NCBI RefSeq assembly: GCF_057098645.1 | Contig: NZ_CM169472.1 | Length of the DNA: 64,000 nt | Reading direction: 5' to 3' (one strand) | Shown: positions 47,696 to 56,681 of the stretch, piece after piece | Position numbering within the stretch: the stretch's first letter is position 1 | Layout: every line of letters begins with the position of its first letter | Program-made: the position numbers and the translations under genes | The notes under the pieces: model-generated | The model's database searches: none | Told to the model about the DNA's origin: nothing | The model's input: only the letters and a program-made list of their open reading frames with translations

Positions 47696-49012
47696 TTAAG
47701 ACTTCGTCGATTTCTCAAAGCGGCGCAGTAACTGGTTCCCACGCTCAACGGCGGTATCCAGTGCCTGCTGCGGTGTCTTCTTACCGGTCCACACGCTCTC
47801 CAGCTCTTCATCCACAATCACGCGGATCTGCGGCATGTTGCCCAGACGCAGCCCTTTGGTGAACGGCAACGGCGGCTTGTTCAGCATCTGACGCGTCGCG
47901 GTATCCGCCCCTGGGTTTTTCTCATAAAAGCCCTGCTCACGGGTCAGGTCATACGCTGCTTTGGTGATTGGCAGATAACCGGTTTTCTGATGCCACTCGG
48001 CAGCGTTTTCTGGCTTCGCGAGGAAGTCGAGGAACTTCGCCACGCCGGTATACGTTTCTTTATCTTTGCCCTGCATCACCCACAGGCTGGCCCCGCCGAT
48101 AATGGCGTTTTGCGGTGCATCTTTCGCATCGGCGTCGTAAGGCATCATGCCTACGCCATAGTTAAATTTGGCGTACTCACGAATATTAGCGAGAGAACCG
48201 GAAGAGGCGGTGGTCATCGCGCAATCACCGTTATAGAACTTCTCGGTGGATTCATCCTTACGCCCGACGTAGCTGAAATCGCCCTTCTTGTTCATCTCTT
48301 CGAGCATGGCGATGTGTTTCACCTGCTCCGGCTTGTTGAACTCCAGCACCGCATCCGTGCCGTCAAAGCCGTTGTTTTTGCTGGCAAACGGCAGACCGTT
48401 CCAGGCGCTAAAGTTTTCCAGTTGGATCCAGCCCTGCCAGCCGCTGGCGTAGCCGCACTTCATTCCGGAGGCTTTCAGTTTTGCAGAATAGTCCGCCAGA
48501 TCCTGCCAGGTTTTCGGCGGCTGTTCCGGGTCTAATCCTGCTTTCTTGAAGGCGTCTTTGTTGTAATAGAGAACGGGGGTCGAGCTGTTGAATGGCTGGG
48601 AGAGTAAGTGGCCCGTTTTGCTGTCGGAGTAGTAACCGGAAACCGTCGGCACAAACTGCGACTCATCGAATTGAATCCCCGCCTCTTTAAACACGTCATA
48701 TACCGGTTTAATGGCTTTCGACGCCATCATGGTGGCGGTGCCAACTTCATAAACCTGCAAAATAGCCGGAGCATTGCCGGTACGAAATGCGGCAATCCCC
48801 GCGCTTAAATTCTGTTCGTAGTTGCCTTTATAGGTCGGTACAATTTTGTAATCCGGGTTTTCGGCGTTAAAACGTTGGGCCAGAGAATCCACCTCTTTAC
48901 CCAGTTCCCCTTCCATAGAATGCCAGAACGGAATGGTCGTCACTGCCTGTGCATTCCCCATTAACGCCAGTCCGAGCGCCAGTGCTGAAGCTGTATAATG
49001 TAACGGTTTCAT
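47696..49012 (-). CDS. ugpB: sn-glycerol-3-phosphate periplasmic binding protein
   Basis: 438 aa ORF with signal peptide. Confidence 0.95.
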
Positions 49013-49128
49013 CGTTTATCTCTCTTGTTGTACCGAATGCGCGAATTCACGCGTTTTATGCTCGCGGGGTAACATGACATGCTCGAATTACAGAAAAATA
49101 ACTTTTTTGTTACATTTGTAAGATAGTA

Positions 49129-49160
49129 AGGTGTCAGAAAGATGACAAGGCGGTGACGGT
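49129..49160 (-). promoter_or_regulatory. Pho box-like element upstream of ugpB
   Basis: Minus strand CTTGTCATCTTTCTGACAC resembles the PhoB direct-repeat consensus CTGTCATA(A/T)A(T/A)CTGTCAC, about 120-150 bp upstream of the ugpB start. Confidence 0.5.
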
Positions 49161-49371
49161 ACGGGTGAGGGAAAATGGGAGATGGGGCACGGATATCCCG
49201 AGAATGCACTGAAAAGAGGCGATTAACGGCCAGCTAATCGCCAGAACTCCTTACCATGAAGAGCAAAAATGGCAGCAAATTCTGCGTCCAGTTTTGCTGC
49301 CCGATGAGAGCTACATTTTTCAATTTTAACAAAAGATTGCCGCGACACTGGTCTAACGGCAAAGAAGATTT

Positions 49372-50121
49372 TCATTGCACCACACTCTGCTTCAACCGTT
49401 CATTGGCGGTCTTAATCCATTCCCGGTGGTGTTTTCTATAATGAGGTCTTGAGCGTTTAGCCGTATCAACTACAGCAACATACTGCTCGTTGGCTTCACG
49501 TAACCGACTCATTTTCGCCAACATTTCCGCATAGTAAATACGCGCCTGCGGGCCGGGGTAATAAGAAATCAATACTTCAAACTCGCTTTCCGCATCAGCG
49601 TATTTTTCTTGTGCGGCTAACGTTCTGGCAAATAACAAATGCCCGTCTGCCGACTGAAAATCAGGGTTATAACGCATCACATCTTCCAGCGTCTGCTGAC
49701 AGGCGGCGAACTCCTGAATAGCAAACTGTGCCTGCGCCAGGCTTAGCATCATTGCCGCCGCTTCATGGGCGAATATCCCGCTTAACGCCTGCTGATAATG
49801 GGGAACGGCTTCGTGGTAACGCTCCAGACGCGCCAGCTCGTTGGCAAGTTGATAGTGGTTTTGATTGGTCTCGGCAATCGCCAGCTCTTCGGTTAATTTG
49901 CGCAGGTGACGTTCCGGATTGATTTTGTCCTGCAGGCGCATCAGAAAGGTACGCCCGTGACGGTCAGCGCCCGTTTCTGGCAGCATCACCATGACAAAAT
50001 ACGCCACGCAACCAATCACCGGAAAACAGAAGATGATAAAAAACCAATATCGCTCTTGTCCGGTACGGTAAGCGTGGATACAGCAAAGCATTTCAAGCAT
50101 GGCGACAACGGCATAATGCAT
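49372..50121 (-). CDS. uncharacterized membrane-anchored protein with TPR-like helical repeats
   Basis: 249 aa ORF; the N-terminus (RYWFFIIFCFPVIGCVAYFV) resembles the small two-helix PLDc_N membrane anchor; the remainder is helical and TPR-like; GGAAAGG Shine-Dalgarno upstream. Confidence 0.55.
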   Translation of the reverse strand: MHYAVVAMLEMLCCIHAYRTGQERYWFFIIFCFPVIGCVAYFVMVMLPETGADRHGRTFLMRLQDKINPERHLRKLTEELAIAETNQNHYQLANELARLERYHEAVPHYQQALSGIFAHEAAAMMLSLAQAQFAIQEFAACQQTLEDVMRYNPDFQSADGHLLFARTLAAQEKYADAESEFEVLISYYPGPQARIYYAEMLAKMSRLREANEQYVAVVDTAKRSRPHYRKHHREWIKTANERLKQSVVQ

Positions 50122-50205
50122 GGGAGGGAACCTTTCCGTGGCAAATAAGTGGTCTGGTTTTAATCCTCCCGGTCAGTTGAAACAAGTCTGTATACGGACG
50201 AAGAG

Positions 50206-50228
50206 CCCGGCAGAACGTGGCTGCCGGG
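50206..50228 (-). terminator. stem-loop downstream of livF
   Basis: CCCGGCAGAACGTGGCTGCCGGG forms an 8 bp GC stem immediately after the livF stop; the flanking U-run is weak. Confidence 0.4.
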
Positions 50229-50239
50229 TATTCGATAAT

Positions 50240-50953
50240 TTACCCGCCTAAATACGCACTTCTCACCGCTTCGTTCGCCAGTAGTGCATCACCAGTATCG
50301 GAGAGCACCACATGGCCGTTTTCCAGCACGTAGCCGCGATCCGCCAGCTTTAGCGCCTGGTTGGCGTTCTGCTCGACGAGGAAGATAGTCATCCCCTGCT
50401 CGCGCAGCTGCTCGATGGTGTCGAAAATTTGCTGGATGATAATCGGCGCAAGACCGAGAGATGGCTCATCAAGCAACAACAAACGCGGGTTGCTCATCAG
50501 CGCGCGACCAATCGCCAGCATCTGCTGTTCACCGCCGGACATGGTGCCCGCCCGCTGAACACGACGCTCATGAAGACGTGGAAACAGCTCATACACCCAC
50601 TTTATGCGCTCCTGAAACTGATCACGTTCGGCAAAAAAGCCGCCCATCGCCAGGTTCTCTTCCACCGTCATCCGCGAGAAGACGCGACGCCCTTCCGGGA
50701 CAATCGCTACCGCTTCGCGCATGATTTTCGCCGTCTGCCAGTCGGTAATGTCTTTATCATCAAACACAATTCGCCCGCTGGTGGCGCGCGGATCGCCGCA
50801 TAACGTGCCGAGCAAGGTGGTTTTCCCCGCCCCGTTCGCGCCAATCAGCGTGACAATCTCGCCCTGATTGATATGCAGGCTCACCTCATGCAGCGCCTGG
50901 ATTTTGCCGTAGTGGGCGCTGACTTTGTCAAAGGACAACATGACTTTTTCCAT
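50240..50953 (-). CDS. livF: branched-chain amino acid ABC transporter ATPase
   Basis: Start placed at MEKVMLSFDKVSAHYGK (237 aa) within the 241 aa ORF. Confidence 0.95.
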   Translation of the reverse strand: MEKVMLSFDKVSAHYGKIQALHEVSLHINQGEIVTLIGANGAGKTTLLGTLCGDPRATSGRIVFDDKDITDWQTAKIMREAVAIVPEGRRVFSRMTVEENLAMGGFFAERDQFQERIKWVYELFPRLHERRVQRAGTMSGGEQQMLAIGRALMSNPRLLLLDEPSLGLAPIIIQQIFDTIEQLREQGMTIFLVEQNANQALKLADRGYVLENGHVVLSDTGDALLANEAVRSAYLGG

Positions 50954-50954
50954 C

Positions 50955-51722
50955 TTATGCCTCACCTAAATAGGCACGGATCACGTCCGGGTTATTACGG
51001 ATTTGCTCCGGCGTACCGTTTGCCAGCGGCGTCCCCTGATTGACCACGTAAATTCGGTCCGAAATTCCCATCACCAGCTTCATATCGTGTTCAATCAACA
51101 AGATAGTGGTGTTGTGATGATTGCGCAGTTCGGCAATCAGCTCATCCAGCTCTTTCGTTTCTTTCGGGTTAAGACCTGCCGCAGGTTCGTCGAGCATTAA
51201 AATCTCCGGCTGCGTCACCATGCAGCGGGCGATCTCCAGACGGCGCTGGTCACCGTAGGCCAGGTTGCTCGCCTGGCGGTTGGCGTGTTCCAGCAAACCA
51301 ATGCGCTCAAGCCAGATGGCGGCGCGGTCGAGCGCTTCGCTCTGGGCGCGACGGAAAGAAGGCGTTTTCAACAGGCCAGAGAACAGCCCGGTTTTCAGTT
51401 GCTGATGCTGCGCCACCAGCAGGTTTTCAATTACCGTCATTTCACGGAACAGACGCACATGCTGGAAGGTGCGCACCACGCCCATGCGGGCGATTTGCTG
51501 CCCCGGCAAACCCTCCAGATGCTGATCGCGCAGTAAAATAGTGCCGCCGGTGGGTTTGTAGAATCCGGTCAGGCAGTTAAAGACCGTGGTTTTTCCGGCA
51601 CCGTTAGGACCGATTAACGAGACGATCTCCTGCGGGTACAGTTCAAGATTGACGTTGTTCACTGCCAGCAGGCCGCCGAAGCGCATCATCAGGCCGTTAA
51701 CAGATAATAATGGCTGACTCAT
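50955..51722 (-). CDS. livG: branched-chain amino acid ABC transporter ATPase
   Basis: 255 aa ORF; Walker [10 protein letters not shown]. Confidence 0.95.
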
Positions 51723-55500: not shown

Positions 55501-55884
55501 ATGAAGCTGACCATCATTCGATTAGAAAACTTTAGCGACCAGGACCGGATTGACCTGCAAAAGATCTGGCCGGAGTATTCCCCTTCCTCTTTACAGGTTG
55601 ACGATAACCACCGCATCTACGCCGCGCGTTTTAACGAGCGCCTGCTCGCTGCCGTACGGGTAACCTTAAGCGGCACCGAGGGAGCACTGGATTCCCTGCG
55701 CGTGCGGGAAGTCACTCGACGTCGCGGTGTGGGGCAATATCTGCTGGAAGAGGTTTTGCGTAACAATCCTGGCGTTTCATGCTGGTGGATGGCGGATGCA
55801 GGCGTGGAAGATCGCGGTGTGATGACGGCGTTTATGCAGGCGCTGGGGTTTACGGCACAGCAGGGCGGCTGGGAGAAGCGTTAA
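55501..55884 (+). CDS. panZ: GNAT-fold PanD maturation/regulatory factor
   Basis: 127 aa ORF (MKLTIIRLENFSDQDRIDLQKIWPEY...) at the position of yhhK/panM/panZ. Confidence 0.85.
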   Translation: MKLTIIRLENFSDQDRIDLQKIWPEYSPSSLQVDDNHRIYAARFNERLLAAVRVTLSGTEGALDSLRVREVTRRRGVGQYLLEEVLRNNPGVSCWWMADAGVEDRGVMTAFMQALGFTAQQGGWEKR

Positions 55885-56408
55885 TCGCTCTGTGTAAAAA
55901 GCAGTTCAATGGATTTGGTTGGGAAAAATAACGCATTTTCGTTTTCCCCGACCAACGGGATAAAGCCCAGCGATTTATAAAACGTATGGGCTTTTTCATT
56001 CAGCGCCTCTACAAAAAGACCGTGAATACCTACTGCTAAAGAGGCTGACCAGACGACTTTCATGGCATGAGCAACCAGTGTTGCTCCCCATCCCTGCCCC
56101 TGTATTGAATGATCAATTGCCAGACGCCCAAGAGTGACGCTGGGAATATTTTTGTAGGGAATTTTTTTCTGTTTCGATTTCGAGGGCAATGCGGCTCGTT
56201 CAAAACAACTGCCGCATAATGTGTAATATCCCAGCACCTGACGTTCTGGAGTGTTGCGACAAAGGATATACGCTCGCAGAATTTTGTTGCGATGTTGACG
56301 AACGAGATGTGTCGTCAGAAAGAGATTTAACGCTTCCTCGCCGCAGTCGAATCGCTGTAGATCATAATCTGCATCATCGGTCAGAATCTCTATCGTCAGA
56401 TCATCCAT
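55881..56408 (-). CDS. ataT: GNAT-family acetyltransferase toxin, AtaT-like
   Basis: 175 aa ORF with the TLGRLAID...GQGWG signature of tRNA-acetylating GNAT toxins; 6 nt downstream of its antitoxin; stop overlaps the convergent panZ stop by 4 nt. The symbol is a recollection, not a search result. Confidence 0.6.
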   Translation of the reverse strand: MDDLTIEILTDDADYDLQRFDCGEEALNLFLTTHLVRQHRNKILRAYILCRNTPERQVLGYYTLCGSCFERAALPSKSKQKKIPYKNIPSVTLGRLAIDHSIQGQGWGATLVAHAMKVVWSASLAVGIHGLFVEALNEKAHTFYKSLGFIPLVGENENALFFPTKSIELLFTQSD

Positions 56409-56414
56409 AAATTA

Positions 56415-56681
56415 TTACATTCCCTGAAGACGTTTTACCGCACGTTTTAGCTTTTCACCTGGTGACGGTGGATTACTCAGCGCATCCATCACCCGCGTCC
56501 AGGATTCCTCATTGAGGATCACCCGCCGATGCTGTTCAATCACTTCCGCAGCCCGCTGCGAAGCGCTGTTCAACATAAATTGGCTGACGGACTGATTAGA
56601 TATCGCTGCCGCTTCCTCAATCATACTTTTGTCATCGTCAGTTAAACGCAGATCGATACGCTGCTTTTTAACAGCAGACAT
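56415..56681 (-). CDS. ataR: DUF1778/RHH-type antitoxin, AtaR-like
   Basis: 88 aa ORF immediately upstream of the GNAT toxin in the same orientation. Confidence 0.6.
   Translation of the reverse strand: MSAVKKQRIDLRLTDDDKSMIEEAAAISNQSVSQFMLNSASQRAAEVIEQHRRVILNEESWTRVMDALSNPPSPGEKLKRAVKRLQGM

What the first reader, a model, noticed from the sequence alone, without database searches (positions are those of the whole stretch)
49372..50121. Unexpected membrane-anchored TPR-like ORF between ugpB and livF
A 249 aa minus-strand ORF with a plausible Shine-Dalgarno sits between the ugp promoter region and the liv operon terminator; I do not recall a gene here in the K-12 order (ugpB followed directly by livF). 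The N-terminus matches the small two-helix PLDc_N-type membrane anchor (RYWFFIIFCFPVIGCVAYFV) and the rest is helical and TPR-like. The likely Pho box region of ugpB lies just downstream of its 3' end. It may be a strain-specific insertion or an unannotated conserved gene.
Basis: partly seen in the sequence, partly recalled or inferred. Interest (0 to 1): 0.45.

Follow-up and report, generated by a model that had tools for sequence, protein, structure and literature searches.

The report
Known membrane TPR gene missing from K-12
The ORF is a real, already annotated accessory gene (ECs_4300 in E. coli O157:H7 Sakai) for a small membrane-anchored TPR protein of unknown function. About 12% of E. 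coli genomes, other Escherichia species and some Citrobacter carry it between livF and ugpB, and K-12 has a repeat element in its place.

The parts
49372..50121 (-). CDS of the 249-aa membrane-anchored TPR protein (= WP_000558828.1; allele of ECs_4300)
   Evidence: ORF; same CDS in RefSeq; dN/dS 0.07-0.21; 654 homologue clusters at E<=1e-30
49966..50121 (-). Codons 1-52: PLDc_N-type membrane hairpin. Helix 2-20 is weakly hydrophobic. The basic loop is RTGQER. Helix 25-52 is strongly hydrophobic and kinked at P34.
   Evidence: AF2 secondary structure; hydropathy 2.62 for TM2 and 1.03 for TM1; H16, W26, P34, G37, Y41 and P48 are 91-99% conserved in 141 sequences; PLDc_N hit in 46/75 members
49867..49965 (-). 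Codons 53-85: basic linker of two helices (54-67, 69-82) with a conserved P69
   Evidence: AF2; the first 20 residues after TM2 carry on average 3.97 K/R and 1.42 D/E in the family
49375..49866 (-). Codons 86-249: TPR solenoid (about four helix pairs plus capping helices), including the family motifs NPDFQSADGHLLFAR and YYPGPQAR
50122..50200 (-). 5' region conserved among Escherichia species, and partly in C. freundii (ACAGACTTGTTTCA...GGAGG.TTAAA). It holds the SD-like GGAAAGG (50131-50137). This is the presumed promoter and leader.
   Evidence: Alignment of upstream regions. No consensus sigma-70 promoter was called here, so the promoter is inferred, not shown.
50206..50228 (-). GC-rich hairpin directly after the livF stop (CCCGGCAG-N7-CTGCCGGG) with a poor U tract. 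It is the candidate liv operon terminator.
   Evidence: RNA fold; sequence
49259..49301 (-). Terminator-like hairpin 1 after the gene (GGCAGCAAA...TTTGCTGCC, then ATTTTTGCTCTT)
   Evidence: RNA fold; sequence
49208..49242 (-). Terminator-like hairpin 2 (GGCGATTAGC...GTTAATCGCC, then TCTTTTCAGT)
   Evidence: Terminator scan; RNA fold
49196..50239 (.). Segment that is polymorphic in E. coli. It is present in 659 of 5426 complete genomes. K-12-like and ST131 genomes have about 215 bp (small terminator plus BIME) in its place.
49013..49195 (-). ugpB regulatory block shared by both haplotypes and by other genera. It includes the Pho boxes at 49131-49159 and a -10-like TATCTT ending at 49120. It is not part of the gene.

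Best explanation
The ORF is a genuine accessory gene under purifying selection. It encodes a small inner-membrane protein of a widespread, uncharacterised proteobacterial family. One source names it 'Uncharacterized protein conserved in bacteria containing a divergent form of TPR repeats'; from memory that is the title of COG4700. A PLDc_N-type helical hairpin (residues 1-52) sits in the inner membrane. A basic two-helix linker lies along the membrane surface. A solenoid of about four TPR repeats (residues 86-249) acts as a protein-binding scaffold, most likely on the cytoplasmic side, with both N and C termini inside. It works as a stand-alone unit with its own leader and two downstream terminators. 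It is not a component of the Liv or Ugp transporters. In Escherichia the gene is ancestral at the livF-ugpB junction. In most E. coli lineages, including K-12, a terminator plus BIME repeat has replaced it. Shown here: coding status, conservation, domain architecture, distribution, and lack of conserved neighbours. Inferred: membrane topology, scaffold role, own promoter, direction of the gain/loss event. Unknown: binding partner and phenotype.
Against: There is no expression data. No consensus promoter was found in the 118-nt livF-ORF spacer, and the livF hairpin has a poor U tract, so read-through from the liv operon is possible. The loop between the two helices is also basic and conserved ([RK]-T-G-R), so the charge rule does not settle the topology. 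TM1 is only weakly hydrophobic. TPR folds say nothing about the partner. 88% of E. coli genomes lack the gene, and the E. albertii type strain has a truncated copy (202-aa ORF), so it is dispensable.
Confidence: 0.55

Rival explanations
1. Same protein but opposite topology: N-terminus out, basic loop in the cytoplasm, and TM2 acting as a signal anchor that exports the TPR domain to the periplasm. There it would serve an envelope function, like the periplasmic TPR proteins CpoB/YbgF or YfgM.
For: The [RK]-T-G-R loop is dense in positive charge (2.16 K/R in 8 residues) and highly conserved, and the N-terminus is uncharged, which suits translocation. The best NCBIfam hit, though far below cut-off, is tol-pal YbgF.
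Against: About four K/R residues in the 20 residues after TM2 would hinder export. The YbgF score is 32 bits against a cut-off of 90. From memory, the cardiolipin synthase paralogues ClsB and ClsC lack the hairpin and work from the cytoplasmic side, which suggests that domains following a PLDc_N hairpin are cytoplasmic. That point was not tested here.
Confidence: 0.25
2. The gene is functionally tied to its neighbours, either as a sixth gene of the livKHMGF operon or as a modulator of ugp expression.
For: It is on the same strand as livF and only 118 nt downstream. The livF hairpin lacks a good U tract. The livF-gene adjacency is kept in Escherichia, Citrobacter and Pseudocitrobacter.
Against: Outside Enterobacteriaceae the homologues never sit next to liv or ugp genes. 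88% of E. coli genomes keep liv and ugp without it. Conservation upstream of the gene begins about 79 nt before the ATG even where the livF-proximal sequence differs, as in E. whittamii and E. albertii, which suggests an independent leader. Two terminators separate it from ugp.
Confidence: 0.07
3. The segment is a recent strain-specific insertion (a small genomic islet) acquired horizontally by the O157/O145 lineage.
For: Only 12% of E. coli genomes carry it. Its alleles are unusually divergent: 548 genomes are 90-95% identical to the window allele while the flanks are 96-100% identical. Divergence is mosaic along the gene. The livF-ugpB gap also holds toxin-antitoxin cargo in C. freundii.
Against: The position is the same in at least four other Escherichia species or clades and in Citrobacter and Pseudocitrobacter. 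There are no integrase, IS or repeat borders; the border on the livF side is exactly the stop codon. The alternative haplotype is itself a mobile BIME repeat.
Confidence: 0.1
4. It is a spurious, non-coding ORF.
For: No experimental evidence of expression was available here, and the Shine-Dalgarno spacing is weak.
Against: dN/dS is 0.07-0.21. Hundreds of full-length homologue clusters share invariant residues. The AF2 model is confident.
Confidence: 0.01

Closest known systems
ECs_4300 (NP_312327.1) of E. coli O157:H7 Sakai, and RefSeq WP_000558828.1 / WP_000558842.1
   Same: Same gene at the same locus between ugpB and livF. WP_000558828.1 is the identical protein. The window ORF is 94.5% identical at the DNA level to the gene in the O157:H7 genomes listed, and Sakai's ECs_4300 has the same 747-bp length and position.
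   Different: Nothing substantive. The window (O145-type) allele has one extra alanine codon (249 vs 248 aa) and a more divergent 5' half.
COG4700, 'Uncharacterized protein conserved in bacteria containing a divergent form of TPR repeats'
   Same: One public source gives this exact protein that name. Two genome papers list COG4700, one as a TPR protein and one as function-unknown.
   Different: That this title belongs to COG4700 is from my memory. No COG profile library was available to test it.
PLDc_N domain (PF13396), the two-helix N-terminus of cardiolipin synthase ClsA and of many small stand-alone membrane proteins
   Same: Two hydrophobic helices joined by a short basic loop, with the W-x7-P-x2-G-x3-Y motif. 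46 of 75 family members match the Pfam model, best E 2e-6.
   Different: TPR repeats follow the hairpin instead of PLD catalytic domains. The window protein alone scores below Pfam's cut-off. An invariant His16 sits near the end of helix 1.
LapB (YciM), an inner-membrane-anchored cytoplasmic TPR adaptor for FtsH
   Same: The general design is shared: an N-terminal membrane anchor followed by a TPR solenoid. There is weak generic profile similarity to PDB 4zlh (E 8e-7).
   Different: LapB has a single TM helix, nine TPRs and a C-terminal rubredoxin domain (established knowledge). This protein has a hairpin, about four TPRs and no Cys-rich C-terminus (sequence). No specific LapB family hit was found.
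CpoB/YbgF (TIGR02795), the periplasmic TPR protein of the Tol-Pal system
   Different: It scores 32 bits against a cut-off of 90. YbgF has a signal peptide and a coiled coil, not a membrane hairpin. The gene is not next to tol-pal.

Membership tests
TPR repeat superfamily | Sequence match to TPR profiles above the curated cut-off | tested here: met
   TPR_19 scores 32.9 bits against a cut-off of 25. All 75 family members hit TPR_19 and TPR_14.
TPR repeat superfamily | Right-handed solenoid of antiparallel helix pairs | tested here: met
PLDc_N (PF13396) | Score above Pfam's gathering threshold | tested here: inconclusive
   The window protein scores 16.3 bits against a cut-off of 23.3, E=0.0099. 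46 of 75 homologues match at E<=0.01, best 2e-6.
PLDc_N (PF13396) | Two N-terminal hydrophobic helices with the conserved W...P..G...Y motif in the second | tested here: met
   Helices 2-20 and 25-52. W26, P34, G37 and Y41 are conserved in 91-99% of 141 sequences. The match covers profile positions 22-39 of 42.
Phospholipase D / cardiolipin synthase | HKD catalytic domains after the hairpin | tested here: not met
   No PLDc hit. TIGR04265 (cardiolipin synthase) scores 12.5 bits against a cut-off of 290 and aligns only to the N-terminus.
CpoB/YbgF (TIGR02795) | Equivalog score of at least 90.1 bits | tested here: not met
   32.3 bits
LapB/YciM | C-terminal rubredoxin-type zinc domain and about nine TPRs | tested here: not met
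   There is no CxxC pair in the C-terminal region of the sequence, only about four TPR pairs, and no LapB family among the NCBIfam hits.
COG4700 | Match to the COG profile | not testable with these tools
   The only link is a source-given name identical to what I recall as the COG title. No COG library was available.
E. coli K-12 gene set | Present in K-12-type genomes | tested here: not met
   K-12-like strain CIT and MG1655p match only 49000-49195 of the query. No remnant of the gene is present.
Anti-phage defence or phage genes | Match to PADLOC or PHROGs profiles | tested here: not met
   0 families in each library

The most novel reading that the evidence does not exclude
The membrane hairpin may be more than an anchor. 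It is the most conserved part of the family and carries polar residues inside the bilayer: Q at position 10 in 92 of 141 sequences, invariant H16, Y41, and E at position 45 in 89 of 141. It could be a lipid- or ion-sensing module that gates the partner binding of the TPR domain. That would make this family a new kind of membrane-state-responsive adaptor, loosely comparable to LapB.
Probability: 0.1. Interest if true: 0.5.

Novelty: already known. Interest (0 to 1): 0.14.

Why it matters
It matters little beyond bookkeeping. The gene is a known, annotated hypothetical in O157, O145 and other E. coli. The useful outcomes are four. The livF-ugpB junction is a variable spot in Enterobacteriaceae, holding this gene, a phd-doc module or its remnant, or a BIME. 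The ugp Pho-box block is untouched by the polymorphism. The family is large, tightly conserved in its membrane hairpin, and still lacks any assigned function, so it would be a reasonable target for a topology and interaction study.

Tried and rejected
- **Gene neighbourhood:** I compared 62 loci and found no conserved partner outside Enterobacteriaceae. My first ORF caller picked antisense ORFs in high-GC loci and had to be refined with a GC3 filter. About 15 high-GC loci still lost the target gene, so they were not scored.
- **Other libraries:** Rfam found nothing in 48800-50500 at E<=1. PADLOC and PHROGs found nothing.
- **Regulatory sites:** the CRP-site scan gave fewer matches than expected by chance, and the only match near here is the Pho-box palindrome itself. 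The promoter scan found no consensus sigma-70 promoter between livF and the ORF. I tried by eye to fit sigma-E, sigma-32, sigma-54 and sigma-S consensus sequences to the conserved upstream block, without a convincing match.
- **Topology from N-terminal extensions:** some homologues carry N-terminal extensions, but these look like mis-called starts and were not used.

Full report
**Observation.** The window has ugpB at 47696-49012 (-) and livF at 50240-50965 (-). Between them is an ATG-started ORF of 249 aa at 49372-50121 (-). The 1261 bases from 49000 to 50260 are 100% identical to E. coli O145:H28 chromosomes such as RM9872, RM12581 and RM13514. In those records the same CDS, with the same start, is annotated as 'hypothetical protein' WP_000558828.1. 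A 248-aa allele is annotated as 'tetratricopeptide repeat protein' WP_000558842.1 in other strains. In O157:H7 Sakai it is ECs_4300 / NP_312327.1, flanked by ugpB (ECs_4299) and livF (ECs_4301).

**Is it a gene?** Yes.
- Nei-Gojobori dN/dS between the window allele and alleles from another E. coli strain, two cryptic Escherichia lineages and E. whittamii is 0.07-0.21, with 24-47 synonymous against 9-25 non-synonymous differences.
- A word-indexed search found 27 relatives. These include E. fergusonii (94% identity), Citrobacter (66-77%) and metagenomic proteins at 32-36%.
- A profile search over 1.84 billion cluster representatives found 25,324 proteins at E<=0.001, 2,901 at E<=1e-10 and 654 at E<=1e-30. 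Nearly all of the 150 best hits listed are 240-256 aa and match from end to end.
- A genome scan put relatives in Escherichia species, Citrobacter, Pseudocitrobacter, Budviciaceae, the Pseudomonas mendocina group, Lysobacterales, Woeseiaceae, Bradyrhizobium, Rhodoplanes and Niveispirillum.
- A second indexed search added Beggiatoa, Thiotrichaceae, Rhodospirillales and Desulfobacterales. Every source name was 'hypothetical' or 'tetratricopeptide repeat protein'.
- One source calls the exact window protein 'Uncharacterized protein conserved in bacteria containing a divergent form of TPR repeats'. I recall that as the title of COG4700. Two genome papers list COG4700, one as a TPR protein and one as function-unknown.

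**Distribution in E. coli and the alternative haplotype.**
- The ORF is found in 659 of 5426 complete genomes. It is always chromosomal, once per genome in all but one, and is annotated as a CDS in every record listed.
- Carriers include O157:H7, O55:H7, O145:H28 and SMS-3-5. From my own knowledge these belong to phylogroups E and F.
- K-12-like strains, ST131, NU14 and an APEC O78 strain match only 49000-49195.
- Alignment shows that both haplotypes share the ugpB upstream block up to 49195 and resume exactly at the livF stop codon at 50240. Between these points the window has 1044 bp and K-12 has about 215 bp.
- The K-12 filler is a short hairpin terminator plus two inverted REP units. It has no similarity to the gene at either the DNA or the translated level. 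It is 87% identical over 129 bp to another BIME in this window at 16499-16626.
- The order livHMGF-gene-ugpBAEC is found in Escherichia sp. E1V33, Escherichia sp. MOD1-EC7003, E. whittamii, E. albertii, Citrobacter sp. NCU1 and a Pseudocitrobacter MAG. C. freundii has the same order with extra cargo between the gene and ugpB.
- The simplest reading is that the gene is ancestral at this junction and was replaced by a repeat element in the lineages that dominate E. coli collections. This is an inference; I did not build a reconciled phylogeny.

**Architecture.**
- AlphaFold2 on a 19-sequence alignment gave mean pLDDT 85.9. The model has helices at 2-20, at 25-32 and 34-52 (one hydrophobic helix kinked at P34), at 54-67 and at 69-82, followed by ten helices from 86 to 248.
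- Hydropathy over 19 residues peaks at 2.62 for the second helix, which is a clear transmembrane segment. The first helix reaches only 1.03.
- In an alignment of 141 family members the best-conserved positions are in this hairpin: H16 (98%), W26 (99%), P34 (91%), G37 (99%), Y41 (99%) and P48 (96%). The usual residues at positions 10 and 45 are Q and E.
- The window protein hits Pfam PLDc_N only weakly (16.3 bits, cut-off 23.3). Across the family, 46 of 75 members hit it at E<=0.01, best 2e-6, while all 75 hit TPR models.
- NCBIfam has no specific family. The best hit is YbgF at 32 bits against a cut-off of 90. PADLOC and PHROGs give nothing.

**Topology.**
- Across the family the N-terminus before helix 1 is essentially uncharged (0.05 K/R).
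- The eight-residue loop carries 2.16 K/R, with consensus [RK]-T-G-R.
- The 20 residues after helix 2 carry 3.97 K/R and 1.42 D/E.
- Counting charges, the N-in/C-in orientation puts about 4.0 K/R inside and 2.2 outside. This favours a cytoplasmic TPR domain, but not decisively, because the loop is densely basic and conserved.
- There is no signal-peptide-like N-terminus. I rate cytoplasmic against periplasmic at about 2:1.

**Context and transcription.**
- After the livF stop there is a GC-rich hairpin (50206-50228) with a poor U tract.
- The 79 nt before the ATG (50122-50200) are conserved among Escherichia species, even where the livF-proximal sequence differs (E. whittamii, E. albertii). 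A core, ACAGACTTGTTTCA...GGAGG.TTAAA, is kept in C. freundii. The consensus scan called no sigma-70 promoter there. An own promoter is therefore plausible but not shown.
- Downstream lie two terminator-like hairpins: 49271-49301 with a U-rich tail to 49259, and 49218-49242 with tail TCTTTTCAGT.
- The ugpB Pho boxes are at 49131-49159, with a -10-like TATCTT ending at 49120. They sit in the block shared with K-12 and with other genera. They are 213 nt past the stop codon and about 50 nt past the second terminator.
- Rfam finds nothing in 48800-50500.

**Function.**
- Gene neighbourhood gives no help. In Lysobacterales the gene follows dnaE-accA. In Pseudomonas it sits beside pnuC-nadR and a flavin monooxygenase. 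In Bradyrhizobium and Rhodoplanes it follows purS-purQ. In some gammaproteobacterial MAGs it precedes rpsB-tsf. In Budviciaceae it sits beside an ABC-F gene (gene identities assigned by me from the sequences). Two distant homologues had yet other contexts.
- The adjacency to liv and ugp is therefore a lineage-specific accident of position.
- The best-supported mechanism is generic: an inner-membrane-tethered TPR scaffold that brings a partner protein to the membrane.
- The unusually strong conservation of polar residues within the hairpin leaves open that the membrane part itself binds something, such as a lipid, an ion or a partner helix.
- The gene is dispensable for E. coli as a species (absent from 88% of genomes), and the E. 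albertii type strain carries a truncated copy (202-aa ORF).

**Verdict.** This is a correct observation of an ordinary, already catalogued accessory gene. The 'unannotated' and 'insertion' suggestions are not supported. Novelty is 'already known' and interest is low.

Noticed in passing
window 49223-49375 (-), homologous part 49226-49333: The 50-aa ORF whose ATG overlaps the TPR gene's stop codon (ATGA) ends with 36 residues that align end to end with the C-terminus (residues 38-73) of a Phd/YefM antitoxin. That antitoxin is encoded with a Doc/Fic toxin between this gene and ugpB in C. freundii (39% identity; E 9e-9 for the single comparison). No doc gene is present here, so this looks like a toxin-antitoxin remnant. 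Both terminator hairpins lie inside it. A similar remnant is seen in the Pseudocitrobacter locus L014. A retracted paper's table lists STM3558-STM3559 as phd-doc in Salmonella; that this pair lies between ugpB and livF is only my memory of the locus numbering.
   Followed up: partly
window 16499-16626; L002 1747-1875: The K-12 filler between livF and ugpB contains a BIME/REP pair that is 87% identical over 129 bp to a repeat copy elsewhere in this window.
   Followed up: partly
window 55881-56408 (-) and 56415-56681 (-): Between panM and livJ there are two ORFs of 175 aa and 88 aa. In O157 Sakai the corresponding genes, ECs_4307 and ECs_4308, are annotated as an acetyltransferase and a toxin-antitoxin system antitoxin. 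This looks like a GNAT-toxin type TA module. As far as I recall K-12 has nothing between panM and livJ.
   Followed up: no
window 49372-50121: Divergence from the 248-aa allele of strain MRSN346647 is mosaic. dS is 0.27 in codons 1-60 and 0.40 in codons 61-125, but 0.05 in codons 126-249. The window allele also has one extra GCC (Ala) codon. This suggests recombination within the gene. The closest full-length allele found is in Escherichia sp. E1V33 (97% protein identity).
   Followed up: partly
window 50165-50170 and 50122-50128: GGGAGG in the leader is complementary to CCCTCCC immediately before the ATG, and the two pair in the predicted fold. The fold energy is not unusual (z = -1.3), and the pairing is not conserved in E. 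whittamii or C. freundii. It is probably not meaningful.
   Followed up: partly
L016 6001-6743 (E. albertii NBRC 107761): The orthologue's reading frame ends after 202 codons, and the tblastn match length is not a multiple of three. This is likely a frameshifted pseudogene in the type strain. Its 3' flank contains a REP element.
   Followed up: no
L017 about 3035-4600 (Enterobacteriaceae MAG Hs463_bin3): Two paralogues of the family lie in tandem on the same strand. This is the only tandem duplication seen among the 62 loci.
   Followed up: no
L005 6850-8324 (C. freundii): Between the TPR gene and ugpB, C. freundii carries two unannotated ORFs (93 aa and 135 aa) and an intact phd-doc (Fic) pair. 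This shows that the livF-ugpB gap is a cargo hotspot.
   Followed up: partly
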